Of a DNA stretch of 64,000 bases, positions 47,155-62,281 are shown one piece after another (the stretch's first letter is position 1; the number at the start of each line of letters is the position of its first letter). The position numbers were made by a program, and so were the translations under genes. The DNA is from an uncultured Candidatus Babeliaceae bacterium. Lineage in GTDB: Bacteria; Babelota; Babeliae; Babelales; Babelaceae. The notes beneath the pieces are model-generated. The model worked only from the letters and a program-made list of their open reading frames with translations. It was not told the DNA's origin and ran no database searches. The stretch is from assembly GCA_963704655.1 (NCBI GenBank), contig OY969927.1, positions 292,222-356,221 on the forward strand, read 5' to 3'.

Positions 47155-47230
47155 TTTGTTGCAAATTTTTTTTTCATGTGCAAGTATCTCTACTGATCTG
47201 ACTAAAATTTTTAAATGGGATATTTGTAGT

Positions 47231-48418
47231 ATGAAGCTTCTCCAAAATATCGTTCTAGTCTGCTTATTTTCTACGGCACATGCTCAAATGCAGCAGGTTA
47301 ATTTTTTAGAACCGCTTCATGATAATGATGGTGCGTTGCAAGACATTACTCGTGCATGCAGTCAGATTTCGTCATCTTATACGTTGTTATTGCCCGCAAG
47401 CCAGGGTGAGCCCTATCAGGTTCTTGGGTTGATTGATGATATGGGAACACTTTCTTGGATCACCACGGTTACTGATGCAAGTCAGCTCAATTTATTATAC
47501 ACCGCAACTTCAGCAGACATTCCCTTAACGCTTGTTTTACGTGACAGTACTGGTTCATTTGCCGCAACTAATATTACACTTACGGGAAATTTAACGCTTG
47601 CAACTCTTACAGGTGTGTTGGTTGCACAAGATGGTTTGGTCTCTGCAACAATTGGCATAGATGGAACACGTCTAGCATCGTTTCCGTTAACAGACGTCCC
47701 CGCTGTTAATTTTTTTCAACCGGTTGAACCATCACGAGAATCATATTTCTTTGATGATTTTATTGCATTTAATGCATCGGCTGGTGGCGTTTTTTATGGT
47801 GATACACCATGGGTTATTTCTAACAATTCTTACCCATCACGCGTTACGTCGTTAAAAAACACCAGCAGCTCTGTTGGTGTTACTCGCCTTTCAACGGGCA
47901 ATATGCAAGATAGTTTGAACTATCTTATTAAGCAAATAAATGCAGACGGTACCAGTAATGGTGTTGGATTTGGCCTTGGTCCCTGCTTGAATGAATGGCG
48001 CGTATCAATTCCTGGTTCAACTCTTTCTTTGGCAAACAGTTTTACAGTATGTTGTGGCATGGGCGATAATTTGGGAACCGCACCTTACGTGCCACAAAAT
48101 GGTATTTATTTTTCATACACAAATACGGGTTCTGGGGCTGTATGGCAAATTAACACAGCTTTTGGTGGAACAATAACGCAAAATACAAGTCCAGCTGTAA
48201 CTCCACTGGCTGGGGTGTTCCAGAGGCTTGCATATGTTGTTGATGCAAGTAGCTCACAGGTAGATTTTTTTATTGATGATCTTTACGTTGGCACACTTTA
48301 TAACATTCCTAGTGGTAATGATTGTTCAGCATTTGCATCGATACGAACAGGAGGTTCTTCAGGCTCGATTGACTTAGATTATTGGTATTATCATTATACT
48401 TTTAATCTGCGGCGTTAA
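47231..48418 (+). CDS. minimal fibre protein (395 aa): signal peptide, one address motif, one LRDSTGSFAAT collar, shared C-terminal head domain
   Basis: The ATG at 47231 gives MKLLQNIVLVCLFSTAHA. Motifs are SYTLLLPASQGEPYQVLGLIDDMGTLSW and TSADIPLTLVLRDSTGSFAATNITLTG. The C-terminal 254 aa is homologous to the ends of the 48450 and 56816 products. Confidence 0.82.
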   Translation: MKLLQNIVLVCLFSTAHAQMQQVNFLEPLHDNDGALQDITRACSQISSSYTLLLPASQGEPYQVLGLIDDMGTLSWITTVTDASQLNLLYTATSADIPLTLVLRDSTGSFAATNITLTGNLTLATLTGVLVAQDGLVSATIGIDGTRLASFPLTDVPAVNFFQPVEPSRESYFFDDFIAFNASAGGVFYGDTPWVISNNSYPSRVTSLKNTSSSVGVTRLSTGNMQDSLNYLIKQINADGTSNGVGFGLGPCLNEWRVSIPGSTLSLANSFTVCCGMGDNLGTAPYVPQNGIYFSYTNTGSGAVWQINTAFGGTITQNTSPAVTPLAGVFQRLAYVVDASSSQVDFFIDDLYVGTLYNIPSGNDCSAFASIRTGGSSGSIDLDYWYYHYTFNLRR

Positions 48419-48449
48419 TATAATAAAACTAAAAAAAAAGGGTTTTGTA

Positions 48450-51179
48450 ATGAGTAATAGATTATTTATTTTTGCAGTATTTTTGATCAGTTTATTTGTT
48501 CCGATATATGCGGAAATAACAAGTGTAGATGAAGCGCTTAAGGTTGTGGGTTTTCTTGATGCGCTTGAAGAAAATTATAAAGATGCATTTAAAGAAAAAA
48601 ATATACGCTATGCATTGGAAGATTTATTAGCTTTTTATGAAAATTCAAATGAATTTACTCCAGAACAACGTGCAGGACTATTTAATAAATTATATCGCTA
48701 TTTCCAGCTGGTTGAAAAATTTGATGCTGAAAATGGCTCTGCAACAAAGTTTTTAAATTCAGATCAAAGTTTAGTAACCTACTGGACACAAATGGTAGCT
48801 GCTACTCATACTATACTTGATACGAATAATAGTTCTACGAGTAATGCATTAAATTTAATTGCGCCAATTTCTGGTGGATTTAACTACACCTATACGTTGC
48901 AAATGCCGGTTAACCAGGGATCTTTTGGACAAGTTTTGTCAACTGATGGTAACAACCCTGCGCAACTTTCTTGGCTTACTACTATAACTGCAGATGTAAG
49001 TCTTATTTACTCTGCAACAAGTTGTGATAATGTAAATACCATAGTATTACGTGATAATAATGGCAGTTTTGTAGCAACAAATATCGCGCTGATGGGCAAT
49101 ACAAATAACAGCTTAATAAATTATAGTACAACTTCATGTGGTCCGGGTACGTCGATGTTGAGTATTCCTGGAACACAAAATATATTCTTAGGCACATCCG
49201 TTGGCAATTCAGCTGTATCGGGCCCAGGTAACGTAGCAGTTGGTAATACAACACTCAATGCTATAACTTCAGGCTCTGGTAACACTGCTATTGGTGTTAA
49301 TGCATTAGCTGCAGTAGTGACAGGCTCTAATAATACTGCAGTTGGTTATGGCGCTAACGTAACTGGCGCAAATGCTCTGAATCAGACAGCAGTTGGTGCC
49401 GGCGCAGTTGCACCATTTAATAACAGCGTGGTATTAGGTAACGCTGCTGTAACCAATGTGGTCCCTATGGCAAGCGGTGTTACAAGTCTTGGTGGTGCAA
49501 GTAATATTTGGTCAACCCTCAATACCTATTCAACTAATTACTATGATAGATCAGGTGATGTAGTTACTATTGCAGCAACGCCAGGTGGAACAGGAACTTA
49601 TACAATGTATTGGCCAACTTCTGTAGGTCAAGCAGGGTATGTGCTTGAAGCAACCACCAGTAGTAGTCCGCAACAGCTTAATTGGATTCCTATTACCGCA
49701 TTGCTGAGCGGTACCTATTGTGATTTCCCAAGCACCTACGTGCAGCGCGATCCAAATGGTAAATTTGCAGCAACAACGATTACGTTAACGGGTGTATCGT
49801 TACTTAACTACAGCACTCTTGGTGGTTGTGACCTCGGTAACCCATTCTTGAGCGTTCCAGGAACAAACAACTTGTTCTTAGGCACTTCTGCTGGTAAACA
49901 AACAGTATCAGGCAGTGCCAACGTTGCTGTGGGTAACCAAGCATTAACAAGCATTAGTACTGGTACGTCTAATACTGCAATTGGTTATAATGCTCTTGCT
50001 GCAGCAGCTGCCGGCTATAATAATGCTGCATTGGGTTATTATGCATTAGCTATTGCTACCGGAAATAATAACGTTGCAGTAGGTTATAATGCCGGTTCAG
50101 CAAGTACCGGATCTAATAATATCTATGTTGGTACAGGAGTAACCGGAAATTCTGGTGATGCCAGTGTTATCAGTATCGGTATTCAAAATGCTGGAACAAG
50201 TGGCACCTATATGGGTGGTATTTATAATACTACGCCTACAGGATTAAACTCTCTTGTAGGTATTACCAGCAGTGGTCAACTTGGTGTTGCAACGTCAGCA
50301 ACTATTACCACACTTACGGTATCAGGAAGTCTTACTGTTGATAATCTTAATGGTGCAGTTATTGCAACTAACGGGTTATTAACAGCGACTATTGGTATTG
50401 ACGGCACACGCCTTGCATCATTTATATTAACCGATACACCTGCAGTAAGCTTCTTCCAACCGGTTGAGCCATCACGTGAATCATACTTCTTTGATGACTT
50501 TATGGCATTTAATTCTACTGCTGGCGACTTGTTCTATGGTGATACACAATGGGTAATTGGTAATAATACTGCCGGACGTGTTACGGCAATTGCACCGCTT
50601 GCATCTAATGGCGCAATTGGTGTGACTCGTTTAACATCTGGCGCTGCTGTAAATAACAGTAATTATATTACCAAACAGCTTACGGGCACAACGTCATTAA
50701 GCTTGTCGCTAGGATATGGCCCATGCTTGAATGAATGGCGTGTTTCTGTTCCAGCAACTTCAAGCGGAACAAATAGTTTCTATACTCGTGTTGGCTTTGG
50801 AGATAGTCCTGCTGCTACAGCAGTAAACCCAACAGGTGCGCCAAGTAATGGTATTTACTTCCAATGCCTTGATAGCATCAACAGTGGTTCATGGACGGTT
50901 AATACCGCAAGTAATGGAAGCAGAACATCGGCAAATACAGCAGTTGCTCCTACTCCAGGCGTATTCCAACGATTGAGTTTTCAAGTTAATGGAAATGCAT
51001 CAAGTGTTACGTTCTACATAAATGATGTTTCGGTAGGAACTATTACGACAACGATACCAACAATAGCCAATGGTAACTATTGTTCACCATATGCGTCTGT
51101 GGTGCGAAATGCTGGTACTGGAGGATCTCTTGATCTTGATTATTGGTATTTCCATTATACCTTTAATTCACGACGTTAA
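48450..51179 (+). CDS. fibre protein (909 aa) with two short beta-roll modules and the shared C-terminal head domain
   Basis: Signal peptide MSNRLFIFAVFLISLFVPIYA plus an N-terminal helical domain. Motifs are YTYTLQMPVNQGSFGQVLSTDGNNPAQLSW, TSCDNVNTIVLRDNNGSFVAT and YCDFPSTYVQRDPNGKFAATTITLTG. The protein ends LDLDYWYFHYTFNSRR. Confidence 0.88.
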   Translation: MSNRLFIFAVFLISLFVPIYAEITSVDEALKVVGFLDALEENYKDAFKEKNIRYALEDLLAFYENSNEFTPEQRAGLFNKLYRYFQLVEKFDAENGSATKFLNSDQSLVTYWTQMVAATHTILDTNNSSTSNALNLIAPISGGFNYTYTLQMPVNQGSFGQVLSTDGNNPAQLSWLTTITADVSLIYSATSCDNVNTIVLRDNNGSFVATNIALMGNTNNSLINYSTTSCGPGTSMLSIPGTQNIFLGTSVGNSAVSGPGNVAVGNTTLNAITSGSGNTAIGVNALAAVVTGSNNTAVGYGANVTGANALNQTAVGAGAVAPFNNSVVLGNAAVTNVVPMASGVTSLGGASNIWSTLNTYSTNYYDRSGDVVTIAATPGGTGTYTMYWPTSVGQAGYVLEATTSSSPQQLNWIPITALLSGTYCDFPSTYVQRDPNGKFAATTITLTGVSLLNYSTLGGCDLGNPFLSVPGTNNLFLGTSAGKQTVSGSANVAVGNQALTSISTGTSNTAIGYNALAAAAAGYNNAALGYYALAIATGNNNVAVGYNAGSASTGSNNIYVGTGVTGNSGDASVISIGIQNAGTSGTYMGGIYNTTPTGLNSLVGITSSGQLGVATSATITTLTVSGSLTVDNLNGAVIATNGLLTATIGIDGTRLASFILTDTPAVSFFQPVEPSRESYFFDDFMAFNSTAGDLFYGDTQWVIGNNTAGRVTAIAPLASNGAIGVTRLTSGAAVNNSNYITKQLTGTTSLSLSLGYGPCLNEWRVSVPATSSGTNSFYTRVGFGDSPAATAVNPTGAPSNGIYFQCLDSINSGSWTVNTASNGSRTSANTAVAPTPGVFQRLSFQVNGNASSVTFYINDVSVGTITTTIPTIANGNYCSPYASVVRNAGTGGSLDLDYWYFHYTFNSRR

Positions 51180-51206
51180 TAAGTAGATAAAAAAAAGGGT
51201 AAAAAG

Positions 51207-54200
51207 ATGAAAATAAACATACTAGTTTTCACATTAACGTTAGTAACATTTTTGCCATTTTATGCTGCCATAAACAGTTTAAAAGAAGCACGAATTGTTT
51301 CGCGGTATCTTGGTGTTATTAAACAACATGACACTATCCTTTTTTCAGACCCTTTGGTGATTCAGACGGTAAACGATCTTATTGATTTTTGTGAAAATAA
51401 TAATCAATTAAGTGAACAAGAAAAATTGGAGTTTGTAACGAAATTAGAAGAGTTTATTTTGTTGGTCCCCGCTGATAGCAGTGGGGATCAACAGATCGGA
51501 GATCAATTGGTGGGGAAAGCAAACCCGCTGTCTGTTAATGGGCAGACATTGGTTGCTTATTGGAGTCAAATTTTTAGCTCGACAGAATTTTTATTTGATA
51601 GCACAGGGAACAACACCGTAGCATTATCTGCTCCATTGGTGTTAAATGATAGTTATACTTTACAATTTCCTGTATCAGAAGGTTCTGCTTATCAAGTGCT
51701 GGGAACATTGGGTGGCAATCCCGCACAACTTGCTTGGCTTACTACTGTTACTAATACGAGTCAATTAAATTTACTGAATACCGCAACAAATTGTGATGTT
51801 GCAAATACATTAGTATTGCGTGATACAACTGGCAGCTTTGCAGCAACAACAATCACGTTAACCGGCAATAGTTTAATTAATTTCAGTACTGTTGGTGGCT
51901 GCGATATCGGACAAGGCTTTGTCTTTGCGCCAACACATCAAAATACCATTATCGGCCTAAATGCAGGAAATAATAACACCCTTACCGGCACAAGTAATGT
52001 TGCATTAGGTTATAATGCGCTAGCAGCGAACATTATTGGACATGACAATATCGCATTAGGTACCAATGCGCTTGCAAATAACACCACCAACCTATCTACT
52101 GCTGTAGGCTCAGGAACTTTACAAAGTAATGTTTCTGGTAGCCAAAATACTGCTGTTGGATATTATGCATTGAATAAAGTTGTTGCCAATGGTAACAATA
52201 CCGCAGTTGGATATTACGCCCTTTTGAATAATACTAATAACCAGCTTACCGCTGTTGGTGCTGGTGCATTACAAACGAATGTCAACGGCTCAGCAAATGT
52301 TGCAGTTGGCTATAACGCATTGAATCAAAATAACGGAGCAAACAATACGGGTCTTGGTTTTCAGGCAGCGCAGGGAACAACTGCTGCAGGTAATATTGTT
52401 GCAGTAGGTGCAAATGCTTTTGCAGCAGGCGTTGCTACTGGTGCACAAACGGTTGCAGTTGGCTCAGCTGCGATGCAGAATGCAAAACCAGCTTTGGGTG
52501 CAGATATTGCCATAGGTTATCAAGCATTGCAGAATGATAATCAAGGGCTCAATGTTGCAGTTGGTACATCGAGCATGACCACTAATAATACCGGCGCTTA
52601 TAACACTGCTGTTGGAATATCAACATTGCAAAACAATGGTAGTGGGATTCAAAATACTGCTATCGGATATTATGCACTTCAAGCAAATACAACGGGAACA
52701 TCAAACATTGCATTAGGCTACCAAGCACTTGCAAATGCAAACACCATAAATAACTTTGATAATATTGCAATTGGAGCATTTACGCTTACTGGAACTGCGG
52801 TATTGGGTGATAATATTGCGGTGGGGGTCAATGCGCTTTCTGCGCCTGGCTATAACCAAGGTCAGCAGATAGCAATTGGAACAAATGCATTACAACTTAA
52901 TACAACTGGAACGGCAAATATTGCAATCGGTTACGAAGTGCTTGATGCAAACACGGCTGGTTCATCAAACGTTGGGCTTGGGTATCAAGCTTTAGGTACT
53001 AATGTTAGTGGTAATGATAATACAGCTGTTGGAACATTAGCTCTTTTCAATAACACAACAAATCAGATCACCGCGGTTGGTTCTGGTGCACTACAAAATA
53101 ATACTACTGGTATTCAAAATACTGCAATTGGTTATAAAGCGCTTAATGCTAATACCACAGGGACATCAAATGTTGCTATCGGATATAAAGCGTTACAGAC
53201 AAATACTATTGGTGATGATAATATTGCTATAGGTTATAACGCATTAAACACCTTCAATTCTGCTATTGGAAAAAATATAGCTATTGGTTCGCTAGCATTG
53301 CAAAGTTTAAATACTACCAATGCGCAGAGTGTTGCCATTGGTTATCAGTCAGGGCTAATTTCTACAGGTGCTAGCAATACTATTGTTGGTTCAAATGCGG
53401 CGACTGGTTTAACAACAGGCGGAAGTAGTGTTGTTATTGGTGCAACTGCCGGCGCAGGCACAACAGTAAGTAATAACGTTGTTGTTGGCGCAGGCGCAGG
53501 AAACCAGACATTAACGGGTGCAACTAACGTTGTTGTAGGGCAGGGTTCCGGAACTGGATTAACTTCTGGCGCAAGTAATACCATTTTAGGACAAGCTGCC
53601 GGAACCGGTTTAACGTCAGGTGGAAGCAGTGTTGTTATAGGCGCAACTGCAGGTGCAGGTACAACAGTAAGTAATAACGTTGTTGTTGGCGCAGGCGCAG
53701 GAAACCAGACATTAACGGGTGCAACTAACGTTGTTGTAGGGCAGGGTTCCGGAACTGGATTAACTTCTGGCGCAAGTAATACCATTTTAGGACAAGCTGC
53801 CGGAACCGGTTTAACGTCAGGTGGAAGCAGTGTTGTTATAGGCGCAACTGCAGGTGCAGGTACAACAGTAAGTAATAACGTGGTTGTTGGTGCTGGTGCG
53901 GGAAACCAGACATTAACCGGCGCTAGCAATGTTATTGTTGGTCAGGGAACAGCTACGGGATTAACTTCAGGTGGAAGCAATATTATTATTGGTCAAGGAA
54001 ACACGGGCGGTACATTAACTACAGGAGCTAATAATATTATTATTAGTACCGGCAATAATGCTACGTACCCAATCGCTAATGGTTCGAATGGTATCATTAT
54101 AGGCTTTGGAACAACTTCTACAACAGCCTGTTGGATCGATGGGATTCTGCCTTTTGCCGCTGGCGCAAATACTGTACGTATAACTGCTGCTGGCAGATTG

Positions 54201-56816
54201 GGTACAGCTGCTTCGTCTGCACGTTATAAAACTAATATAAAACCGATGACAAGTGAGTCTTCAAATATATATCAGTTAAGTCCTGTTTCATTTACGTTTA
54301 TTCCAAGTATTGATCCAACACAAACAACCTACTATGGTTTAATAGCCGAAAATACTGTTGGTCTTTACCCAAGTTTAGTTGTTACAGATACAGCAGGTCT
54401 TCCTTGGGCGATTAACTATGATTTATTGTCACCGATAGTTTTAAATGAAACACTTAAGCTTAACGCCTTTGTGCCGATAACATTAAATTATACAAGTACG
54501 CAAAATACGGTTATTGGTAAAAATGCGTTGCAGGCAATTACTACTGGTTCGGGTAACACTGTTTTTGGTTATCAAGCGGGGAATTCGATCACAACAGGAT
54601 ACGGTAACACACTTCTTGGCATGGGTGCAGATGTAGCTTCTGGTAACCTGGTAAATGCGACAGCAATTGGTGCTGGTGCAAAGGCCACTAATAATAATAC
54701 TATTGTCTTAGGAAATTCAAATGTTGTTGCTGTAGTACCCGGTTCAACTAATGCTACGCTTGGTGCGCCTGGGCAGATGTGGTCATCTATTATGACAACA
54801 CAATTGACTTCTGCTGGCAGTTTAACATCGCCTACAATTACGTTAACAAGTAATCCATTAATGTATTATTATGATGGCATAACCACGTGGACTATGTTGT
54901 CAGCGCCTGGAACACAAAATACTTTCTTAGGGCAAAGTGCGGGTAATTTATCGGTGACAGGAGCACGTAATGCTGCCTTTGGTTATCAGGCTGCAAAATC
55001 AAACATAACATCAAGTGATAATGTGGCTGTTGGGGTGAATGCATTGGCAACATATAATGGTGCAGGTGGTCAACATGTTGCAATAGGATCAGGTTCTATG
55101 CAAAATGCGACTCCTACCGGACAGTCTGATATTGCAATCGGATATAATACGTTGCAAAAAGATAATGGTCAAGGATCTAATATTGCCATTGGTAACTCAG
55201 CAATGCAGAATGCTACGCCTATAAATGGTCAAGATATTGCAATTGGGTTACTTACATTACCAAGTGATACCATAGGATTTAATATCGCAATCGGTAACAG
55301 TAGTATGACTAATAATACAACTGGTGTTAATAACGTTGCTCTGGGAATTTCTTCATTACAAACTAATACTTCTGGATCGTATAACGTCGCTATCGGTAAT
55401 AGCGCATTATTTGGAAACGCTGCCAATGCTGCAAAAAATGTAAGTAATAACGTTGCTGTTGGGTATCAAAGTTTGTATAACAATCGCGCAAATAATTTAA
55501 CGGCAATTGGTTATTATGCGCTTGGCTCAAATACAACCGGTATTCAAAATACGGCACTTGGTTATTACGCACTTGGCCTGAATACAACCGGCACATCAAA
55601 TATCGCTATCGGTTATCAAGCTTTAGCAAATGCAAACACTATCAATAATTTTGATAATATCGCCATTGGTATAAATACGCTTTCTGGAGCAGGTGTCTTA
55701 GGTGATAATATCGCCATTGGTGCAAATGCGCTTTCTGCATCTGGGTATAGTCAAGGCCAGCAGATTGCTGTTGGCACAAACGCATTGCAAGTTAATACAA
55801 CAGGGACAGCAAATATAGCAATTGGTTATGGGGTGCTTGATGCAAACACGGTTGGGTCGTCGAACGTGGGGCTTGGGTACCAAGCATTAACTACTAATGT
55901 TAGCGGTAATGACAATACTGCAGTTGGAACGAATGCTTTACAGTTTACGACAACATGGCGTTTAACTGCCGTTGGTTCTGGCGCATTACAATATAATACG
56001 ACTGGTTTTCAAAATACCGCCGTTGGCTATCAGGCGCTTAATGCAAATACAACCGGCACATCGAATGTTGCTATTGGTTACCAAGCTCTTTTAACAAATA
56101 CAGGAAGCAGTAGCAATATCGCCATTGGTGCCAATACATTAACAAGATTTAGCAGTGCTTCTAATTTTGGTGGCAATAATACAGCAGTGGGTATCAATGC
56201 GTTAGTTTCACTCATTACGGGAACTGGCAATACAGTTTTGGGCTACAACGCTGGATCAAACTTAACAACTGGTAGTGGAAATATTTATGTCGGTGCATTT
56301 GTTGCCGCAGCAACAACTAACGAGAGCAACACAATACGTATTGGAAGTGTTGGCGGTGCAGGAACAGCAGCTTGCTATATTCAAGGAATTAATGGTAAAA
56401 CAGTTCTTCCTGTAGCTGGTGCGGGCACTGTTAGTGTAAGTACGACTGGACAGCTTGGTACTACCGTTTCATCACGACGTTTTAAGAAAAATATTCAAGA
56501 TATGGGTCTAATCACTGAAGATTTGTATAAATTACGTCCTGTAACATTTAATTATAAAGTTGATGAGGCTGAAGAGCATTTAGAATATGGTCTAATCGCT
56601 GAGGAAGTTGATGAGGTTTATCCAGGGATTATTATTAGGGATGATTATGGAGCGCCATTTTCGGTTCAATACCAATTTCTTCCTATGATGATGCTTAATG
56701 AATTGCAAAAAGATCGTGCACGTATTGTGGTATTAGAAGATAAAATTGTAAGATTGGAACAACAGATTAGCAAGCTTTTGAATAATAGTGAACGACTTTC
56801 AGTAAAGGATGTGTGA
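51207..56816 (+). CDS. double fibre protein (1869 aa) with an internal and a C-terminal Peptidase_S74-like domain
   Basis: Signal peptide MKINILVFTLTLVTFLPFYA. Module 1 ends ..RITAAGRLGTAASSARYKTNIKPM... A second beta-roll module follows. The C-terminus is VSSRRFKKNIQDM..GLIAEEVDEVYPG..MMLNELQKD. Confidence 0.9.
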   Translation: MKINILVFTLTLVTFLPFYAAINSLKEARIVSRYLGVIKQHDTILFSDPLVIQTVNDLIDFCENNNQLSEQEKLEFVTKLEEFILLVPADSSGDQQIGDQLVGKANPLSVNGQTLVAYWSQIFSSTEFLFDSTGNNTVALSAPLVLNDSYTLQFPVSEGSAYQVLGTLGGNPAQLAWLTTVTNTSQLNLLNTATNCDVANTLVLRDTTGSFAATTITLTGNSLINFSTVGGCDIGQGFVFAPTHQNTIIGLNAGNNNTLTGTSNVALGYNALAANIIGHDNIALGTNALANNTTNLSTAVGSGTLQSNVSGSQNTAVGYYALNKVVANGNNTAVGYYALLNNTNNQLTAVGAGALQTNVNGSANVAVGYNALNQNNGANNTGLGFQAAQGTTAAGNIVAVGANAFAAGVATGAQTVAVGSAAMQNAKPALGADIAIGYQALQNDNQGLNVAVGTSSMTTNNTGAYNTAVGISTLQNNGSGIQNTAIGYYALQANTTGTSNIALGYQALANANTINNFDNIAIGAFTLTGTAVLGDNIAVGVNALSAPGYNQGQQIAIGTNALQLNTTGTANIAIGYEVLDANTAGSSNVGLGYQALGTNVSGNDNTAVGTLALFNNTTNQITAVGSGALQNNTTGIQNTAIGYKALNANTTGTSNVAIGYKALQTNTIGDDNIAIGYNALNTFNSAIGKNIAIGSLALQSLNTTNAQSVAIGYQSGLISTGASNTIVGSNAATGLTTGGSSVVIGATAGAGTTVSNNVVVGAGAGNQTLTGATNVVVGQGSGTGLTSGASNTILGQAAGTGLTSGGSSVVIGATAGAGTTVSNNVVVGAGAGNQTLTGATNVVVGQGSGTGLTSGASNTILGQAAGTGLTSGGSSVVIGATAGAGTTVSNNVVVGAGAGNQTLTGASNVIVGQGTATGLTSGGSNIIIGQGNTGGTLTTGANNIIISTGNNATYPIANGSNGIIIGFGTTSTTACWIDGILPFAAGANTVRITAAGRLGTAASSARYKTNIKPMTSESSNIYQLSPVSFTFIPSIDPTQTTYYGLIAENTVGLYPSLVVTDTAGLPWAINYDLLSPIVLNETLKLNAFVPITLNYTSTQNTVIGKNALQAITTGSGNTVFGYQAGNSITTGYGNTLLGMGADVASGNLVNATAIGAGAKATNNNTIVLGNSNVVAVVPGSTNATLGAPGQMWSSIMTTQLTSAGSLTSPTITLTSNPLMYYYDGITTWTMLSAPGTQNTFLGQSAGNLSVTGARNAAFGYQAAKSNITSSDNVAVGVNALATYNGAGGQHVAIGSGSMQNATPTGQSDIAIGYNTLQKDNGQGSNIAIGNSAMQNATPINGQDIAIGLLTLPSDTIGFNIAIGNSSMTNNTTGVNNVALGISSLQTNTSGSYNVAIGNSALFGNAANAAKNVSNNVAVGYQSLYNNRANNLTAIGYYALGSNTTGIQNTALGYYALGLNTTGTSNIAIGYQALANANTINNFDNIAIGINTLSGAGVLGDNIAIGANALSASGYSQGQQIAVGTNALQVNTTGTANIAIGYGVLDANTVGSSNVGLGYQALTTNVSGNDNTAVGTNALQFTTTWRLTAVGSGALQYNTTGFQNTAVGYQALNANTTGTSNVAIGYQALLTNTGSSSNIAIGANTLTRFSSASNFGGNNTAVGINALVSLITGTGNTVLGYNAGSNLTTGSGNIYVGAFVAAATTNESNTIRIGSVGGAGTAACYIQGINGKTVLPVAGAGTVSVSTTGQLGTTVSSRRFKKNIQDMGLITEDLYKLRPVTFNYKVDEAEEHLEYGLIAEEVDEVYPGIIIRDDYGAPFSVQYQFLPMMMLNELQKDRARIVVLEDKIVRLEQQISKLLNNSERLSVKDV
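53367..53969 (+). repeat. three tandem in-frame copies of a 201-bp (67-aa) unit
   Basis: Copies start at 53367, 53568 and 53769. The unit is GASNTI.G...TGLT.GGSSVVIGATAGAGTTVSNNVVVGAGAGNQTLTGA.NV.VGQG..TGLTS. Copies 2 and 3 are almost identical at nucleotide level. Confidence 0.92.
54213..54470 (+). other. internal Peptidase_S74-like domain
   Basis: S-S-A-R-Y-K-T-N-I places Ser aa 1003 at 0 and Lys aa 1008 at +5. It continues ..IYQLSPVSFTF..YYGLIAENTVGLYPSLVV..INYDLLSPIVLNETLKLN. Confidence 0.7.
56469..56813 (+). other. C-terminal Peptidase_S74-like chaperone domain
   Basis: SSRRFKKNIQDMGLITEDLYKLRPVTFNY..EYGLIAEEVDEVYPGIIIRD..QYQFLPMMMLNELQKDRA plus a coiled coil. Confidence 0.8.
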
Positions 56817-59800
56817 TGAAAAGAAAGATGTTATTTTTTTATACTATATTTTTGACGTTAAGTGCCTTAACAACGCTTAACGCAGTTCAAGATAAAGTTG
56901 TTTTGGTTGATAACAATACATTATCTCAGCTAGATATGCATAGATGGTATAATGAAAATATACATCAGCTAGAATCTGTTCCTGCACAAGCGTATGTTCA
57001 TCATAAGATTTTTAAACTGACACATGATAAAGATTCTGAATACATTTTTATATACGGAAATAAAAAATTCGTGTCACGACAAGAAGCACAATTAGATGCG
57101 GGTGATTGTTGTTTAGGGCAACTGCCTGGCGCAACGCTGATCGCAGATTTTCTTGTGCATAATCAAGATCTTTTTGTCCGTAATGCGCAAAAAGTTTCAC
57201 ACCGTGCCGGTCAATTTATTTGGGATCGACTTACTCCTGGATTACCTTTATTGTTAGATTCAAATTTAGATGTTGTTACACAAAACGTTGATATAGCAAG
57301 TCAAACAAGCGGTGCTGTGGCAATAGCATTAGGTGGCACCAATTCAACTTCGCCATTACAGAACAATTGTCTTATGGAATCAGTTGGTGGACAAATAGTT
57401 GAAGCTCCGGCGTTACAAAATGGACAGATTTTTATTGGTGCAACAGGCATGTCGCCAAGTCCTGCAACTATTTCTGGAACAGCTTCTCAAATTAATATAA
57501 CAAATGGCCCTGGATCTATAACACTTTCAACACCACAAAATATCGATTTACTGTCAACGCCGACATTTGTGGGTATTCAGTTTCAACCTAGTGGTTCATC
57601 TAATTATGTTACTCTTCAGGCACCTGCAACAGTAAGTTCAACGTATTCAGTAAGCCTACCAGGCTCTGCGCCAACTGCAGGTCAAGTATTACAGGCAACA
57701 TCTACATCAACAACTCAGTGGGGGAATGTGAGTGACGCGCTTACTTTATATGTTGCTGTCAATGGAAATGATAGCACGGGAAATGGCTCATTAACAGCAC
57801 CTTTTGCAAGCTTAAAGCGGGCACTAGCCGTCGCTAATGCTATTGCATCAGAATATACACCAGTTAAAATCTCAGTGGGGCCTGGTATATTTGTGGAAGA
57901 CACTTCTTCTGGCCCATTAATAATTAATCCTGTAAGTGGTAGTGGTTATATCAACATTGTGGGAACATCAAGTCAAACAACTCTCTTTACTTCTTATACC
58001 CCAACACAAACGTTTATCTATATGCCAGCAAATGGCCGGCTTTCTGATTTGGCAATTTTTGGTATATATGAAGCGCCCGCAGTGTGCGCAGATGGCACTG
58101 GTAATAATTCTGCCTTTATTAACGCTGTTGCAGTTGGTTGCCAGCAGGGTTTTCTTTTTCAAGGTGGTATAACAACTAACTACTATTTACAAGGAGTTGC
58201 TACCGAAAGTTGCGGTGTTGGTGTGCTAGTTGATGATGCTCGCGTGTTGATGTATAACTCAAGTTTTGATGGGGCACTTGAAACAACAATTATTCCTGCA
58301 AATACGGGGGTTATTGTAACAGGTCCGGCAGGGCGTATGGTTGCAGAGTCATGCGCATTTTTATATTGCGGCCTTTGTGGATTGGTAGAAAATCAAGGGA
58401 ACGCTACATTTATAGGCGGCTCGTTTATTAGTTCAACAAGTGGTGTTCAGGCAGCAAGTCAGTCAACGTGTATTGTTAATGGTTCAACATTTTATAGTAA
58501 TACCGCAACGAATATGATCGCTCGAGATTTGGGGACAACTTTGCAGTCAACTGCATGTAATGTTGATGGTAATAGTTTAAATAATCTTCCGCAAGGAACG
58601 GGTCTTTTGGTTACCACCAGTGCTCAGGCTAATATTGCAGTTGCGTCGTTAACTAATTTAATAAATGGTATTATCATTGGTCAAGATGGTGATGATAGCA
58701 CAACGCAGGTTCTTTCAGTTGGAGTAACTATCGATAATTGTGCAGGATCACAAATTATTCAAAATGGGCTTGCGCAATTAACGTATGTTGATGGTGCTCT
58801 TAATAGGAACTTTATAACTATTTCAAATCCTACAAATGTTACCTTTAATACCACGGATGCTTCAAGCGGGCAGGCAACGATTATTGGTCAGCATAGTGAT
58901 GTTGATCAAGATTTGATTCTTGTTGATACTGGGGTTGCGCAGATGCCAGGGTTAGTTTATCAATCAAATTATATGGATTGTAAGGGTATAATTTATCAAA
59001 ATACTAATCCTGCTTTTTCAACCATGCTTGGGGTGCAGGGACAAAACTCTGGCGCAACACTTTCTGCAGTTACTGCTTCAAATGCACAACCTGCAAAAGT
59101 CATGTTATTTTCAAACTCCGGTGCTTTTGGCGGAATGAGTAATATGCGCGGTTGGTTGTTGAATAAAAACGCAACAAACGCTCAATTGGCAGGTGAATTT
59201 TATAATAATGATCTTGATGGTAAACCTGCTATAGATCAATATACAAGTTTTCAATTTGACGGTTTTAATAATATTTTGCAATTCCCGGCAGTAACCACAA
59301 CAAATTTACCAACCAATACCGTGGCACAATTACAATGGGCGGGAGATACGAATCTTTACCGTGCACAAGCAGGTGTGTTACAGACAGATAATAACTTTGC
59401 CATTCAAGGTCTTGCCACCGCAAATAGTGCATTATATGTAGATGGTAATAAGCAGGTTGCTGCAAGTGTTACCTCTTCAAGTGATTTAGCACAACTTGCA
59501 GGAATAACCGGTGGTCCTATTCAGCCGCAACTTAATAATAAAGTTTCAAAGGCTGGCGATGTTATGACCGGCGTGTTAACTATTCCAGATGGCACCGTTG
59601 CAAGACCGGCACTTAGTTTTAATGGTTTTCCTAATACTGGATTAGCGATTATAGGTAACGTTTTTACCTTAATGACTTCAGGCAGTTCACGCTTAACAGT
59701 AGATGCTAACGGTGTTGTGGGTATTAATAGCTCGAATGTTTCAACGGTGTTGAACGTAGGCGGTGATGTATCTGTAGTGGGTGATCTTACGGTGACTAAC

Positions 59801-62281
59801 ACCTTAACTACCAATTGGTTAACTATTCAAAATAGTCCAGTTTTCTCAACAGATGGCGCCAATAAAGCTTATGTCGATGGGGTTGCTCAGGGATTACATG
59901 TTGCAGCGCCATGCACTGCACTTGGAGATTCAAATATCAGTTTGCTCTCTGGCGCCATAACTATTGACGGTGTATCACTTGTTGTTGGCAATCGTGTATT
60001 GCTTATTGGGCAAACAAGCTCAGTTGAAAATGGTATTTGGGTTGTACAATCTGGTTCATGGACACGACCAGTAGATTTTGCAACTGGAAATAGTGCGCAA
60101 GCAATTTATGCATTTATACAATCTGGGTCAACATATGGTGACACCGCATATTTTTGTACTACATTAGACCCGAATGCGGTAATTGATACTGACGCACTTA
60201 CCTTTGTGCAGTTCGGTAATGTTCAGGATGTTACAGGTCAAAACTTAGGAAGTGGAGCGTCAGTATTTGCTCAAAAATATGGACAAACGTTACAATTTAA
60301 ATCACTTGATGCAGGGCAAAATATCTTTATATCTTCTTCTGATACCGATATTACGATAGATCTTCCATCTGCATTAAATATCTCTGGTAAAATAACTGCC
60401 GGCACTGATATTAAGGGCGCAAGTATTAGTGATGGTATTGCGCTATTAACCAGTGGTAATTTGAATCTAAATAATCTTATTTCAACGGCTACGGTTACAA
60501 GTTCTGATGGATCGGCTGCGTATCCAAGTTTTAATTTTGCATCATCGCCACAGACAGGAATTTCTGCACAGACGCCTGACACATTAGTATTATCAACAGC
60601 GGGAGTTAACAACTTGCAAATTAATTCTTCAGGAATTATTCAAATTCCCGCGTTTACATCACCAGGAATTGTGCATAACGATGCTTCAGGAAATCTTTCT
60701 TCGTCATTAATAACCAGTGCCGATATATCAGCAACTGCCGGTATAGCAGATACGCAACTTGGTATTATTCATACTGCGGGTAAAGTTGCTAATAGCGCTA
60801 CAACAGCAACAAATAATAATAATCAAAATACTATTGTCATGCGCGACATGAATGGTAACTTTTCTGCAGGCGCGGTGAGCGCCTCTTTGCAAGCACCGAG
60901 TGGTTCAGTAACTTCGCCATCGGTGGCTTTTGCAAATTCACTTAATGCAGGCTTATCATCGCCCGTTGCAGGCCAGCTGAGCATAAGTGCAGGTGGTGCA
61001 GAATTATTACAATTGCAAGCGGGTGGAAATATCTATGTTCCTGGTTTTGTTTCAAATAATGGGGTGGTAAAATCAACATCGGGTATATTAAGCTCCGCGC
61101 CGTTATATGATGCGGATATCGCAGTTGGCGCTTCTATACAAGATACAAAATTAGCAACCATACAAAGTGCTAATAAAGTTGCAAATAGCGCAACTTCTGC
61201 AACATCGGCTAATAGTGCTAATACTATTGTCGCACGTGATGGATCTGGTAACTTTGTTGCAAATACAGCAACATTTGTTGCAACAAATAATCATCTTGTA
61301 TTGGGCAGTGGTAATACGGTTACCATTAATGCTGCCACTCCTGCAGTTTCACGTACGTATACAGTTCCAGACACCGGTACATCAACTTCTACGTTTATGA
61401 TGGTTGATGGCGCACAAACTATGAATGGTCCACTTACCTGTAATCAACTTTCTGTGACGCCGGGTAGCTTTACGGTGGGTTCACAAACCGGGGTTGTTAC
61501 GGCAAATAGCGGTCTTTATGGTGCATCGGTTGGAAATGCTGGTCAACGTCTTGCAACATTTGGCAGCACACCAACTGTTGGGTGGTACAAGTCAATTGAG
61601 CCATCACGCGAGTCATTATTCTTTGATGATTTTACTGGCCCGCTGTTTGATACGCAGTGGTATGCTGGCGGATCGATTGGTAGTGTAACAGCACCAAGTG
61701 CTTCTGCAACGGGCATGGAGATTGGCGTTATTCAACTTGGCACGGCTGGCGCACCAGATGGTTCTACGGTAATTAATAAACAACTTAATGGCACTGTGCT
61801 TGGCAATGGAACATGTTATGTTGAATGGCGCGTTGCAGTGCCAACATTATCAACAAGTAATCAGCAGTTTACCTTCAGATGTGGTCTTGGTGATAGCAGT
61901 GTTGGCAACGGTGTTCCGCAGGCAAATCCAACAACGGGTATTTGGTTTGAACATAGCGGTACTAATATTTCACCTACATGGATCATTAATTGTGCATCTG
62001 CAGGAAACACTACTTCCATTCCTACTACGCAGGTTATTGCTCAGGGTGTCTATTATCGATTAGGACTTTTAGTAGATGCTGCTGCTGATTCGGTATCATA
62101 CTATATTAATGACGTGCTTGTTGGGGTTAGTTCTGGAACGAATCCAATTACTACAAATATTCCGACTACGGTACAACCTGTTGGTTTATTTGCGCATCTT
62201 ATTAAATCATCAGGAACAACGGCGCGTACGGCAAACTTGGATTATGCAATGTACCAGTATGTTTATACGAGCCAACGATAG
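56816..62281 (+). CDS. fibre/tailspike-like protein (1821 aa): signal peptide, right-handed beta-helix-like region, tail-fibre repeats, shared C-terminal head domain
   Basis: The ATG at 56816 overlaps the upstream TGA by 1 nt. The N-terminus is MKRKMLFFYTIFLTLSALTTLNA. LYVAVNGNDSTGNGSLTAPFASLKRALAVA is a DUF1565/pectate-lyase-type start. Fibre repeats are GKVANSATTATNNNNQNTIVMRDMNGNFSAG and NKVANSATSATSANSANTIVARDGSGNFVAN. The protein ends LDYAMYQYVYTSQR. Confidence 0.88.
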   Translation: MKRKMLFFYTIFLTLSALTTLNAVQDKVVLVDNNTLSQLDMHRWYNENIHQLESVPAQAYVHHKIFKLTHDKDSEYIFIYGNKKFVSRQEAQLDAGDCCLGQLPGATLIADFLVHNQDLFVRNAQKVSHRAGQFIWDRLTPGLPLLLDSNLDVVTQNVDIASQTSGAVAIALGGTNSTSPLQNNCLMESVGGQIVEAPALQNGQIFIGATGMSPSPATISGTASQINITNGPGSITLSTPQNIDLLSTPTFVGIQFQPSGSSNYVTLQAPATVSSTYSVSLPGSAPTAGQVLQATSTSTTQWGNVSDALTLYVAVNGNDSTGNGSLTAPFASLKRALAVANAIASEYTPVKISVGPGIFVEDTSSGPLIINPVSGSGYINIVGTSSQTTLFTSYTPTQTFIYMPANGRLSDLAIFGIYEAPAVCADGTGNNSAFINAVAVGCQQGFLFQGGITTNYYLQGVATESCGVGVLVDDARVLMYNSSFDGALETTIIPANTGVIVTGPAGRMVAESCAFLYCGLCGLVENQGNATFIGGSFISSTSGVQAASQSTCIVNGSTFYSNTATNMIARDLGTTLQSTACNVDGNSLNNLPQGTGLLVTTSAQANIAVASLTNLINGIIIGQDGDDSTTQVLSVGVTIDNCAGSQIIQNGLAQLTYVDGALNRNFITISNPTNVTFNTTDASSGQATIIGQHSDVDQDLILVDTGVAQMPGLVYQSNYMDCKGIIYQNTNPAFSTMLGVQGQNSGATLSAVTASNAQPAKVMLFSNSGAFGGMSNMRGWLLNKNATNAQLAGEFYNNDLDGKPAIDQYTSFQFDGFNNILQFPAVTTTNLPTNTVAQLQWAGDTNLYRAQAGVLQTDNNFAIQGLATANSALYVDGNKQVAASVTSSSDLAQLAGITGGPIQPQLNNKVSKAGDVMTGVLTIPDGTVARPALSFNGFPNTGLAIIGNVFTLMTSGSSRLTVDANGVVGINSSNVSTVLNVGGDVSVVGDLTVTNTLTTNWLTIQNSPVFSTDGANKAYVDGVAQGLHVAAPCTALGDSNISLLSGAITIDGVSLVVGNRVLLIGQTSSVENGIWVVQSGSWTRPVDFATGNSAQAIYAFIQSGSTYGDTAYFCTTLDPNAVIDTDALTFVQFGNVQDVTGQNLGSGASVFAQKYGQTLQFKSLDAGQNIFISSSDTDITIDLPSALNISGKITAGTDIKGASISDGIALLTSGNLNLNNLISTATVTSSDGSAAYPSFNFASSPQTGISAQTPDTLVLSTAGVNNLQINSSGIIQIPAFTSPGIVHNDASGNLSSSLITSADISATAGIADTQLGIIHTAGKVANSATTATNNNNQNTIVMRDMNGNFSAGAVSASLQAPSGSVTSPSVAFANSLNAGLSSPVAGQLSISAGGAELLQLQAGGNIYVPGFVSNNGVVKSTSGILSSAPLYDADIAVGASIQDTKLATIQSANKVANSATSATSANSANTIVARDGSGNFVANTATFVATNNHLVLGSGNTVTINAATPAVSRTYTVPDTGTSTSTFMMVDGAQTMNGPLTCNQLSVTPGSFTVGSQTGVVTANSGLYGASVGNAGQRLATFGSTPTVGWYKSIEPSRESLFFDDFTGPLFDTQWYAGGSIGSVTAPSASATGMEIGVIQLGTAGAPDGSTVINKQLNGTVLGNGTCYVEWRVAVPTLSTSNQQFTFRCGLGDSSVGNGVPQANPTTGIWFEHSGTNISPTWIINCASAGNTTSIPTTQVIAQGVYYRLGLLVDAAADSVSYYINDVLVGVSSGTNPITTNIPTTVQPVGLFAHLIKSSGTTARTANLDYAMYQYVYTSQR
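57740..58860 (+). other. predicted right-handed parallel beta-helix (pectin-lyase-fold) region
   Basis: The entry motif YVAVNGNDSTGNGS..PF.SL..AL is followed by ~350 aa of irregular G/N/T/V-rich ~22-25-aa turns, such as VGCQQGFLFQGG, CGVGVLVDDARV and NTGVIVTGPAG. Boundaries are approximate. Confidence 0.5.

What the first reader, a model, noticed from the sequence alone, without database searches (positions are those of the whole stretch)
47654..62278. A shared ~250-aa C-terminal head domain is the alternative ending to the S74 chaperone
Three proteins end in a homologous domain, at nt 47654-48415, 50394-51176 and 61541-62278. Conserved landmarks start with G(I)DGTRLASF.LTD.PAV.FFQPVEPSRESYFFDDF.AFN (..WYKSIEPSRESLFFDDFTG in the third). 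They continue with GDT.WVI.NN, (I/V)GV(T/I)(R/Q)L.(S/T)G, CLNEWRVS.P (CYVEWRVAVP), NSF.....G(F/M)GD, P.NGIYF, W..NTA, GVFQRL...V......V.F.I(D/N)D..VGT, and finally the tail LDLDYWY.HYTFN.RR (LDYAMYQYVYTSQR in the third). The alternation of short beta-like segments and the ..V.F(Y/F)I.D..VG.. signature are reminiscent of ConA-like/LamG jelly-roll lectin domains, but I cannot place it in a named family. It always sits at the distal (C-terminal) end and is never combined with an S74 domain. It is therefore the best candidate for a receptor-binding tip. The two closest copies (47654 and 50394) are clearly similar even at nucleotide level around FFQPVEPSRESYFFDDF.
Basis: partly seen in the sequence, partly recalled or inferred. 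Interest (0 to 1): 0.7.

Follow-up and report, generated by a model that had tools for sequence, protein, structure and literature searches.

The report
Lectin-fold tips on bacterial surface fibres
Three secreted, phage-tail-fibre-like proteins of an uncultured protist-associated bacterium (Babeliaceae, Dependentiae) end in the same ConA-like lectin-fold domain, a divergent branch of the phage tail-fibre tip family SO2946-like_C, and it takes the place that a self-cleaving S74 chaperone holds in their sister proteins; this is a new host and a new tip type for an already described design, not a new kind of system.

Summary
Exactly three copies of a ~230-260-aa domain occur in the window, each ending at a stop codon. 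Pairwise BLASTP E-values are 6e-75 to 6e-32.

The fold guess is supported. An AlphaFold2 model (pLDDT 82.8) is a ConA-like jelly roll.

The domain can be placed in a named family. It is a divergent Dependentiae branch of Pfam PF22237 (SO2946-like_C):
- hhalign probability is 100%, E 4.6e-60.
- The copies themselves score at or below Pfam's cutoff.

The family has about 9,100 clusters. It is almost always C-terminal and is typical of uncultured tailed-phage tail-fibre proteins. Its type member lies beside the LambdaSo prophage tail-fibre gene.

The window is a Babeliaceae chromosome, not a phage. The carriers have Sec-type signal peptides. They share body modules with S74-ending paralogues, and relatives show direct tip swapping.

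Most likely the domain is the distal ligand-binding (probably glycan-binding) tip of surface fibres, as in the non-S74 MAT fibres of Bdellovibrio. Binding, trimerisation and surface display are inferred, not shown.

Novelty is moderate: a new member of a known kind.

The parts
47231..48418 (+). O1: a 395-aa minimal fibre protein. It has a signal peptide (MKLLQNIVLVCLFSTAHA), two short fibre-body modules, a neck and the ConA-like tip.
   Evidence: P0002 is identical from the ATG at 47231; its body module is 65% identical to repeats in the S74-ending 4779-aa protein.
47654..48415 (+). Tip copy 1. The neck is ~47654-47719 and the SO2946-like ConA-fold domain is ~47720-48415.
   Evidence: (HMM E 1.5e-67).
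48450..51179 (+). O2: a 909-aa fibre protein with a signal peptide, a helical N-terminal region, a repeat-rich (NTA(I/V)GY..L) body and the tip.
   Evidence: phrog tail spike / virion structural matches, aa 469-571; aa 1-586 are ~30% identical to O3 aa 1-653.
50394..51176 (+). Tip copy 2, the copy that was modelled. The jelly roll starts at about residue 29 (nt ~50478).
   Evidence: PF22237 at 25.6 bits (cutoff 27), E 1.4e-5; pLDDT 82.8, pTM 0.83..
51207..56816 (+). O3: a 1869-aa sister fibre protein that ends in an S74 intramolecular chaperone instead of the tip.
   Evidence: Peptidase_S74 at 72.6 bits, two stretches..
54213..54386 (+). Internal S74 module of O3, from aa 1003. The S..R.K.NI motif is intact.
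56469..56624 (+). C-terminal S74 module of O3 (aa 1755-1806).
56816..62281 (+). O4: a 1821-aa fibre protein with a signal peptide, a different body (no similarity to the S74-ending proteins) and the tip. Its ATG overlaps the O3 stop codon (TGATG).
   Evidence: phrog_17264 at aa 1040-1158..
61541..62278 (+). Tip copy 3, the most divergent (36% identical to copy 1).
   Evidence: HMM E 5e-68.
832..6720 (+). F1: a 1962-aa S74-ending fibre paralogue with a signal peptide. Its S74 module is at nt ~6358-6516.
22684..37023 (-). F2: a 4779-aa S74-ending fibre paralogue. Its S74 module is at nt ~22891-23055. It contains repeats of the body module found in O1.

Best explanation
The three stretches are paralogous copies of one all-beta ConA-like (lectin/glucanase-fold) domain. 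They form a divergent, Dependentiae-specific branch of the SO2946-like_C family (Pfam PF22237), whose members otherwise cap the C-termini of tail-fibre proteins of uncultured tailed phages.

Here the domain sits on chromosomal genes of a Babeliaceae (Dependentiae) bacterium. These genes encode Sec-exported, phage-tail-fibre-like proteins arranged in an operon-like block.

Inferred mechanism:
- After export, the N-terminal part stays cell-proximal.
- The repeat-rich body forms a (probably trimeric) fibre.
- The C-terminal domain forms the distal knob. Its conserved beta framework carries variable loops that bind a surface ligand, most likely a glycan, of the protist host or another target.

The S74-ending paralogues fold with a C-terminal chaperone that then cuts itself off. 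The ConA-tipped paralogues keep their last domain, which must therefore also serve as the C-terminal folding cap.

Tips are exchanged between fibre bodies by recombination, which diversifies specificity.

Shown: homology, fold class, family placement, terminal position, mutual exclusivity with S74, mosaic exchange, chromosomal context and signal-peptide-like N-termini.

Inferred: surface display, trimerisation, ligand binding and the nature of the ligand.
For: Homology and copy number:
-.

Fold:
- The AF2 model has pLDDT 82.8 and pTM 0.83, with 16 strands.
- Foldseek against PDB gives legume L-type lectins, 2A5Z/SO2946 (best TMq 0.55-0.56), the SraP and Emp46/47 lectin modules and GH16/PL7 enzymes, all at probability 1.00 and E ~1e-8 to 1e-7.
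- Foldseek against BFVD gives uncultured Caudovirales proteins at TMq 0.71-0.76, E 1e-19 to 1e-16 and 23-28% identity. These are named 'SO2946-like C-terminal domain-containing', 'Concanavalin A-like' and 'Major tropism determinant N-terminal domain-containing'.

Family placement:
- PF22237 scores 25.6 bits for copy 2.
- It scores 49.6 bits for a Babeliaceae homologue that is 35% identical.
- 6 of 12 subfamily members match at E<=0.01.
- hhalign of the subfamily against PF22237-positive domains gives 100% probability, E 4.6e-60 over 217 columns.

Distribution and phage context:
- There are 9132 representative clusters at E<=1e-3.
- 72 of 87 top hits are PF22237. PHROG families are tail fibre or minor tail, and BppL_N and PTR partners occur.
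- IMG/VR loci lie next to tape-measure and minor-tail genes.
- In Pseudanabaena phage Pan5, gp18 follows the short-tail-fibre gene.
- SO_2946 is annotated as a carbohydrate-binding-module protein beside the LambdaSo tail-fibre gene (PMC4112983).

Terminal position and exclusivity with S74:
- The domain is terminal in 154 of 161 relatives, and none has an S74 module.

Cellular context:
- SerRS is 87% identical to a Babeliaceae MAG protein.
- The closest tip homologues are in Dependentiae MAGs.
- Housekeeping genes flank the block.
- Another Dependentiae MAG has two adjacent tip-ending genes, an S74-ending gene and the same ATP-dependent ligase.

Module sharing and swapping:
-.

Framework versus loops:
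- Strands are more conserved than loops, and indels sit in the loops.

Precedent:
- Bdellovibrio MAT fibres have S74 and non-S74 subfamilies. Lectin-like tips 'substitute for the S74 chaperone', and one of them binds GlcNAc-containing glycans (PMC10769870).
Against: - No ligand, oligomer or localisation data exist for any member of the family. The only solved relative (2A5Z) is a structural-genomics entry of unknown function, and it is too distant to be found by sequence.
- The ConA-like fold is shared by lectins and by glycoside hydrolases and lyases, and TM-scores to solved structures are only ~0.5. The fold alone therefore does not prove binding.
- The excess conservation of strands over loops is modest (0.62 vs 0.49 majority fraction).
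- Signal peptides were judged by eye, because no predictor was available.
- All three window copies fall below Pfam's gathering score.
- The conserved N-terminal beta-rich domain that defines Bdellovibrio MAT proteins was not demonstrated here. O2, O3 and F1 instead share what reads as a helix-rich N-terminal region; no secondary-structure prediction was run on it.
Confidence: 0.6

Rival explanations
1. The domain is mainly a C-terminal folding and trimerisation cap that replaces the S74 chaperone's assembly role. Ligand binding would reside elsewhere, for example in clefts of the beta-helical body, as in S74 tailspikes.
For: - It occupies exactly the position of the S74 module and is mutually exclusive with it.
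- The very last residue is Arg in 121 of 154 proteins, and a strongly conserved framework fits a structural role.
- In the MAT paper the non-S74 caps 'fold independently' and cap the trimer (PMC10769870).
Against: - It is not exclusive of binding.
- The minimal O1 protein (395 aa) has almost no body, so the tip is its main content.
- Phage relatives join the domain to receptor-binding-protein N-termini (Mtd_N, BppL_N) where the C-terminal part is the specificity determinant.
- Loops are indel-rich.
- No multimer model could be run.
Confidence: 0.15
2. The domain is an enzymatic tip: a GH16-like glycanase or PL7-like lyase that depolymerises a surface polysaccharide of the target.
For: - GH16 beta-glucanases head the Foldseek PDB lists, and PL7 alginate lyases also appear.
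- A weak profile hit to a GH16 laminarinase (5wut, E 1.4) was found.
- Phage fibre tips are often depolymerases.
Against: - None of 30 family sequences has the GH16 ExDxxE catalytic motif.
- No glycoside-hydrolase or lyase family was hit in Pfam or NCBIfam.
- The closest structural relatives by TM-score are SO2946 and lectin modules.
- Family-wide conserved residues are mostly Gly, aromatic and framework positions.
Confidence: 0.1
3. The genes are ordinary tail-fibre genes of a prophage or a tailocin-like element integrated in the chromosome, not bacterial surface proteins.
For: - The tip family, the S74 modules and several body segments are typical of phage fibres.
Against: - No capsid, terminase, tape-measure, baseplate or integrase gene was seen among the larger ORFs of the window scanned against Pfam. 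The neighbours are SerRS, GatA-type amidase, RecJ, a MatE transporter, an ATP-dependent ligase and tRNAs.
- All six fibre proteins start with Sec-type signal peptides, which virion proteins do not need.
- A similar gene set with the same ligase neighbour recurs in a different Dependentiae MAG.
Confidence: 0.05

Closest known systems
Pfam PF22237 SO2946-like_C (ConA-like lectin/glucanase clan). Type structure: PDB 2A5Z, SO_2946 of the Shewanella oneidensis LambdaSo prophage.
   Same: - Homologous by profile-profile comparison (100%, E 4.6e-60).
- Same jelly-roll fold.
- Same C-terminal position.
- Same conserved landmarks: F-DDF, G-V..L.TG, EWRV, G.xD, DG.YF.Y, W, V.T...NIP, DY and a terminal R.
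- Same association with fibre-like N-terminal parts.
   Different: - The window copies score at or below Pfam's gathering cutoff (25.6 bits, or no hit).
- They carry a subfamily-specific conserved neck (G.DGTRLASF...FFQPVEPSRES).
- They are encoded by a bacterial chromosome on signal-peptide proteins rather than in phage tail modules.
- No function has been shown experimentally for any family member.
Bdellovibrio bacteriovorus MAT (mosaic adhesive trimeric) fibres, S74 and non-S74 subfamilies (Caulton et al. 2024, PMC10769870).
   Same: - A host-dependent bacterium encodes many large, signal-peptide-bearing, phage-tail-fibre-like proteins.
- Some end in an autoproteolytic S74 chaperone. Others end in an independently folding beta-rich or lectin-like tip that takes its place.
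- Tips are mosaic and swappable.
   Different: - Different phylum (Dependentiae), and the presumed target is a eukaryotic protist rather than Gram-negative prey.
- The ConA-like SO2946-type tip is not among the solved MAT tips (novel beta-sandwiches, TNF-like, C-type lectin). It is not mentioned in that paper's held supplements.
- The conserved ~130-aa beta-rich N-terminal MAT domain was not identified here.
Phage receptor-binding proteins with exchangeable C-terminal heads and carbohydrate-binding modules, e.g. BppL/Mtd-type fibres and the CBM2 of the phage J-1 Dit (PDB 5LY8).
   Same: - Modular fibres whose C-terminal or appended beta-sandwich module determines what is bound.
- Relatives of the window domain are fused to BppL_N and Mtd_N modules.
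- 5LY8 appears among the fold matches.
   Different: - These are virion components that act in phage adsorption to bacteria.
- Sequence similarity to the solved examples is negligible.
L-type (legume-type) lectin modules of bacterial adhesins, e.g. Staphylococcus SraP (PDB 4M00/4M01) and Aap.
   Same: - A ConA-like lectin module presented on a long surface protein for glycan-dependent adhesion.
- They match in Foldseek (E ~1e-7, TM ~0.45-0.5).
   Different: - Only fold-level resemblance (14-16% identity).
- Metal-binding and sugar-binding residues were not assessed.
- Those modules are internal or N-terminal parts of cell-wall-anchored proteins of Gram-positive bacteria.

Membership tests
Pfam PF22237 SO2946-like_C | Score at or above Pfam's gathering cutoff (27 bits). 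| tested here: not met
   Copy 2 scores 25.6 bits (E 1.4e-5). Copies 1 and 3 have no hit at E<=10. By contrast, 6 of 12 members of the same Dependentiae subfamily match at E<=0.01 (best 3.7e-17), and the Babeliaceae homologue in L005 scores 49.6 bits.
Pfam PF22237 SO2946-like_C | Homology to bona fide family members over the whole domain. | tested here: met
   hhalign of the subfamily alignment A4 against 21 metagenome C-terminal domains drawn from the top hits (72 of 87 of which match PF22237) gives probability 100%, E 4.6e-60 over 217 aligned columns. The exhaustive HMM search links them continuously.
Pfam PF22237 SO2946-like_C | ConA-like jelly-roll fold resembling 2A5Z. | tested here: met
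   The AF2 model has pLDDT 82.8. 2A5Z chains A and C match at E 5e-8 to 3e-7 and TMq 0.55-0.56, the highest TMq in the PDB list. BFVD proteins named SO2946-like match at TMq 0.63-0.72.
Pfam PF22237 SO2946-like_C | Location at the C-terminal end of the protein. | tested here: met
   All three copies run to the stop codon. 154 of 161 relatives end within 5 residues of the domain.
MAT-type fibre adhesins (Bdellovibrio; PMC10769870) | N-terminal signal peptide. | tested here: met
   All six fibre proteins begin with a basic n-region, a hydrophobic h-region and an A-x-A-like site. Examples are MSNRLFIFAVFLISLFVPIYA|E and MKINILVFTLTLVTFLPFYA|A. This was judged by reading the sequence, because no predictor was available.
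MAT-type fibre adhesins (Bdellovibrio; PMC10769870) | Conserved ~130-aa beta-rich domain directly after the signal peptide. | not testable with these tools
   No Bdellovibrio MAT N-terminal sequence or structure was available, since the solved structures cover only the tips. O2, O3 and F1 share an N-terminal region that reads as helix-rich, so this feature may well not be met.
MAT-type fibre adhesins (Bdellovibrio; PMC10769870) | Two subfamilies: an S74-terminated one with the S..(R).K catalytic motif, and a non-S74 one with alternative tips on related bodies. | tested here: met
   F1, F2 and O3 have Peptidase_S74 with an intact S-x-x-R-x-K-x-N-I motif. O1, O2 and O4 have the ConA-like tip. 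Body modules are shared, and mosaics occur in relatives.
MAT-type fibre adhesins (Bdellovibrio; PMC10769870) | Trimeric fibre displayed on the cell surface. | not testable with these tools
   No multimer prediction or experimental data were available.
GH16 glycoside hydrolases | Catalytic ExDxxE motif on the cleft strand. | tested here: not met
   0 of 30 family sequences contain E.D..E. There is no GH16 hit in Pfam.
L-type (legume) lectins | Ca/Mn-binding and sugar-binding loop residues. | not tested
   Only the fold-level match was obtained.

The most novel reading that the evidence does not exclude
Dependentiae, obligate parasites or symbionts of protists, have domesticated the phage tail-fibre toolkit as their own host-attachment organelles. 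The toolkit comprises S74-chaperoned fibres and SO2946-like lectin tips. The ConA-like tip would then be a phage-derived receptor-binding domain retargeted to eukaryotic surface glycans, and recombinational tip swapping would set protist host range. This would extend the Bdellovibrio MAT principle from bacterial prey to eukaryotic hosts. It would also give the large, function-less PF22237 family (about 9,000 clusters) its first assignable role.
Probability: 0.35. Interest if true: 0.6.

Novelty: new member of a known kind. Interest (0 to 1): 0.4.

Why it matters
How Dependentiae (TM6/Babelota) recognise and enter their protist hosts is not known. My searches of the held library found no paper describing fibre adhesins in this phylum.

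This locus offers concrete candidates: a compact block of secreted fibres with two kinds of endings, and a short 395-aa member (O1) that should be easy to express.

It also links a very large, uncharacterised phage tail-fibre tip family (PF22237) to a testable binding hypothesis. In addition, it shows that the S74/non-S74 'tip-swapping' design described for Bdellovibrio occurs in an unrelated, eukaryote-associated phylum.

The practical value is mainly for annotation and for choosing experiments. It does not overturn current understanding.

Tried and rejected
- Sequence search of the PDB with copy 2, with the 6-sequence profile and with a 21-sequence family profile gave nothing meaningful. The results were a designed propeller protein, a GH16 at E 1.4, and no hits. 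The solved relative 2A5Z is reachable only by fold.
- PHROGs on the three tips gave no hit. NCBIfam on the five fibre proteins gave no hit.
- The word-indexed protein search found only 4 relatives. The exhaustive HMM search was needed to see the family.
- tblastn against 50,697 cultured-phage genomes found a single phage, Pan5. The family is essentially known only from uncultured phages.
- The first AF2 run, with 6 sequences, was mediocre (pLDDT 67). It was replaced by a 30-sequence run.
- Promoter and terminator scans of the block were no different from shuffled sequence and were not used.
- Literature searches for Dependentiae with endosialidase, adhesin or tail, and for SO2946-like, PF22237 or 2A5Z, found no description of these proteins. 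The one 'Dependentiae + tail' lead (the cyanophage PA-SR01 paper) was irrelevant.
- phmmer of the full O3 sequence against the PDB gave no hit.
- BLASTP failed to print the obvious 87%-identical tip alignment between P0006 and O2. MAFFT and Smith-Waterman were used instead.
- The prophage, enzyme and chance explanations were considered and ranked low. The reasons are given under the rival explanations.
Full report
**1. What is in the sequence**

The finding covers the 3' ends of three ORFs on the + strand:
- O1: 47231-48418. The ORF list gives a TTG at 47156, but the identical database protein P0002 starts at the ATG, MKLLQNIV.
- O2: 48450-51179, 909 aa.
- O4: 56813/56816-62281, about 1821 aa.

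Between O2 and O4 lies O3 (51207-56816, 1869 aa). The four genes are separated by 31, 27 and -1 nt, and the O3 stop overlaps the O4 ATG as TGATG. They therefore form one operon-like block.

The three C-terminal stretches align over their whole length. BLASTP between the carrier proteins gives E-values of 6e-75, 6e-32 and 1e-37.

A six-frame scan of all 64 kb with a family HMM finds exactly these three copies, each running to the last codon. Copies 1 and 2 are also about three-quarters identical at the nucleotide level over the first 147 nt.

**2. Fold**

A first AlphaFold2 model built from six sequences was mediocre (pLDDT 67). A second, from 30 sequences, reached pLDDT 82.8 and pTM 0.83. It is all-beta, with 16 strands.

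The jelly roll starts at ESYFFDDF. This N-terminal piece is conserved only in the Dependentiae subfamily, and I treat it as a neck.

Foldseek against the PDB returns hundreds of ConA-like proteins at probability 1.00 and E ~1e-8 to 1e-7, with TM ~0.45-0.56:
- GH16 glucanases.
- Legume L-type lectins.
- Emp46/47.
- The lectin module of the staphylococcal adhesin SraP.
- PL7 lyases.
- 2A5Z, 'protein of unknown function SO2946', which has the best query-normalised TM-score.

Against predicted viral structures the matches are much better: TMq 0.71-0.76, E 1e-19 to 1e-16 and 23-28% identity. All of these are proteins of uncultured tailed phages. Some are named 'SO2946-like C-terminal domain-containing', 'Concanavalin A-like lectin/glucanases superfamily' or 'Major tropism determinant N-terminal domain-containing'.

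**3. Family**

Pfam gives PF22237 (SO2946-like_C) for copy 2 at 25.6 bits, just under the 27-bit cutoff. It gives nothing for copies 1 and 3. Several independent links show that they nevertheless belong to that family:
- A distant homologue found in the first protein search (P0004) scores 59.8 bits.
- A Babeliaceae protein 35% identical to copy 2 scores 49.6 bits.
- Six of twelve members of the close subfamily match at E<=0.01.
- A profile of the subfamily aligns to a profile of 21 C-terminal domains taken from the top hits, most of which match PF22237, with probability 100% and E 4.6e-60 over 217 columns.

The exhaustive HMM search found 9132 representative clusters at E<=1e-3 and 5314 at E<=1e-10. 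Of 87 top hits, 72 are PF22237 and 11 also hit Laminin_G_3. Their N-terminal parts hit PHROG tail-fibre and minor-tail families, BppL_N and phage tail repeats.

Evidence for a phage tail-module context:
- In IMG/VR contigs the genes sit beside tape-measure and minor-tail genes.
- The only cultured phage with a match is Pseudanabaena phage Pan5. There the domain ends a 973-aa protein encoded right after the short-tail-fibre gene.
[quoted passage not shown] It lies next to the tail-fibre gene SO_2945 of the LambdaSo prophage (PMC4112983).

No member has a demonstrated function. Even a family profile does not reach 2A5Z by sequence.

**4. Position and exclusivity**

The last residue is Arg in 121 of those. 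The only exception is one cluster (P0010) with two tandem copies and an extra 110 residues.

None of 162 proteins has an S74 module, and none of 87 does by Pfam.

**5. Context: a bacterial chromosome, not a phage**

The window is part of a 1.3-Mb metagenomic contig. Around the fibre genes lie SerRS, a GatA-type amidase, RecJ, an ATP-dependent DNA ligase, a MatE transporter, a radical-SAM enzyme and two tRNAs. No phage structural or integration gene was seen.

SerRS is 87% identical to that of a 'Candidatus Babeliaceae bacterium' MAG. The next named hits are Dependentiae/Babeliales. The only GTDB genomes with close tip homologues are two Dependentiae MAGs. Dependentiae/Babelota are described as strictly intracellular bacteria of heterotrophic protists (abstract of PMC12172432).

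All six large fibre proteins in the window begin with Sec-type signal peptides. These are O1-O4, F1 at 832-6720 and F2 at 22684-37023 on the minus strand.

**6. Alternative ending**

F1, F2 and O3 end in Peptidase_S74 modules with the S-x-x-R-x-K-x-N-I motif intact. O1 and O2 share body modules with them:
- O1 residues 40-120 are 65% identical to repeats in F2 and 52% identical to O3.
- O2 residues 1-586 align with O3 residues 1-653.

Relatives from other samples are direct mosaics:
- P0009 has an N-terminus 63% identical to that of O3 over 219 residues, but it ends in the ConA-like tip.
- P0006 has an O4-type body (35-39% identity over ~1000 residues) with a tip 87% identical to that of O2. 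O4's own tip is only ~40% identical to that of O2.

A second Dependentiae MAG (L004) has two adjacent tip-ending genes, an S74-ending gene and the same ligase neighbour. The domain is thus a swappable alternative to the S74 ending on a common fibre scaffold.

**7. Mechanism**

The best-supported reading is that these are exported fibre proteins whose C-terminal ConA-like domain forms the distal knob and binds a ligand, probably a glycan. The supporting points are:
- The fold.
- The terminal position.
- The phage relatives, in which the C-terminal module of a fibre is the specificity determinant (Mtd_N and BppL_N fusions).
- The CBM annotation of SO_2946.
- Indel-rich loops on a conserved framework. 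The majority fraction is 0.62 in strands and 0.49 in loops.
- The mosaic exchange of tips.

The closest functional precedent is the MAT family of Bdellovibrio. It has 13 S74 and 8 non-S74 members. The non-S74 members end in independently folding beta-sandwich, TNF-like or C-type-lectin tips that 'substitute for the S74 chaperone'. One of those tips binds GlcNAc-containing glycans (PMC10769870).

Surface display, trimerisation and binding are inferences here. Because S74 chaperones nucleate trimer folding from the C-terminus and then leave, the retained ConA-like domain must at least also act as the folding cap. A purely structural role is the main rival.

An enzymatic role is less likely. No ExDxxE motif occurs in 30 sequences, and there are no hydrolase or lyase family hits. 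A prophage origin of the block is unlikely, given the signal peptides, the housekeeping context and the recurrence in another MAG.

**8. Comparison and novelty**

The domain is a divergent member of a catalogued but functionally uncharacterised Pfam family. The architecture follows the known phage-fibre and MAT logic. The new elements are:
- The phylum, and with it the presumed eukaryotic target.
- The use of this particular tip type on bacterial fibres. It is not among the solved MAT tips or in that paper's held supplements.
- The subfamily-specific neck.

I found no paper describing fibre adhesins in Dependentiae.

I rate it a new member of a known kind, with moderate interest (0.4). It is useful for annotation and gives an experimentally tractable lead on host recognition in Dependentiae. 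It would not surprise a specialist who knows the MAT work.

Noticed in passing
window 51207-56816 (S74 modules at ~54213-54386 and 56469-56624): O3 carries two intact S74 chaperone/protease modules, one internal (aa 1003) and one terminal (aa 1755). It therefore looks like two fibre units fused head to tail. Autocleavage at the internal module would split the protein in two.
   Followed up: partly
window 53406-53917: A 201-nt tandem repeat (2.5 copies, 95% identical) lies inside O3. It encodes repeated GGSSVVIGATAGAGTTVSNNVVVGAGAGNQTLTG... units. This suggests recent expansion, or possibly an assembly-prone region.
   Followed up: partly
window 56813-56818: The O3 stop codon and the O4 ATG overlap (TGATG). 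O1-O4 are separated by only 31, 27 and -1 nt, which suggests co-transcription and translational coupling.
   Followed up: no
family-wide (alignment A6; proteins P0001-P0162): The very last residue of the protein is Arg in 121 of 154 family members whose domain is terminal. It is invariant in the 30-sequence alignment. A conserved C-terminal Arg with its free carboxylate has no explanation yet.
   Followed up: partly
P0010 and its cluster (651 aa; metagenome proteins): This is the only exception to the terminal position. It has two tandem copies of the domain followed by about 110 further residues.
   Followed up: no
window 22684-37023 (-) and 832-6720 (+): There are two further giant signal-peptide fibre proteins (4779 and 1962 aa) ending in S74 modules. 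They are internally repetitive and up to 60% identical to each other over 900 aa. Fibre genes thus occupy about 29 kb of this 64-kb window.
   Followed up: partly
window 17367-19136; L004 5135-6889: An ATP-dependent DNA ligase gene lies near the fibre genes both in the window and in another Dependentiae MAG. This may be a conserved neighbourhood.
   Followed up: no
window 56816-62281, aa ~1039-1158 of O4: A segment of the O4 body resembles a phage 'capsid decoration protein' (PDB 9nx3_A, E 5e-7) and phrog_17264. The N-terminal third (aa ~300-700) reads like a right-handed beta-helix domain.
   Followed up: no
BFVD matches to the tip model: Besides tailed phages, long proteins of Marseillevirus LCMAC103 (TMq 0.66) and Fadolivirus (TMq 0.58) match the tip fold. 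These are giant viruses; as far as I know such viruses infect protists, the kind of host Dependentiae also use (not checked here).
   Followed up: no
P0021 (NCBI MGI0076818.1): A family member is deposited as a protein of a Nitrosopumilaceae archaeon MAG on a 2.8-kb contig. It may be a binned viral fragment or an archaeal-virus member of the family.
   Followed up: no
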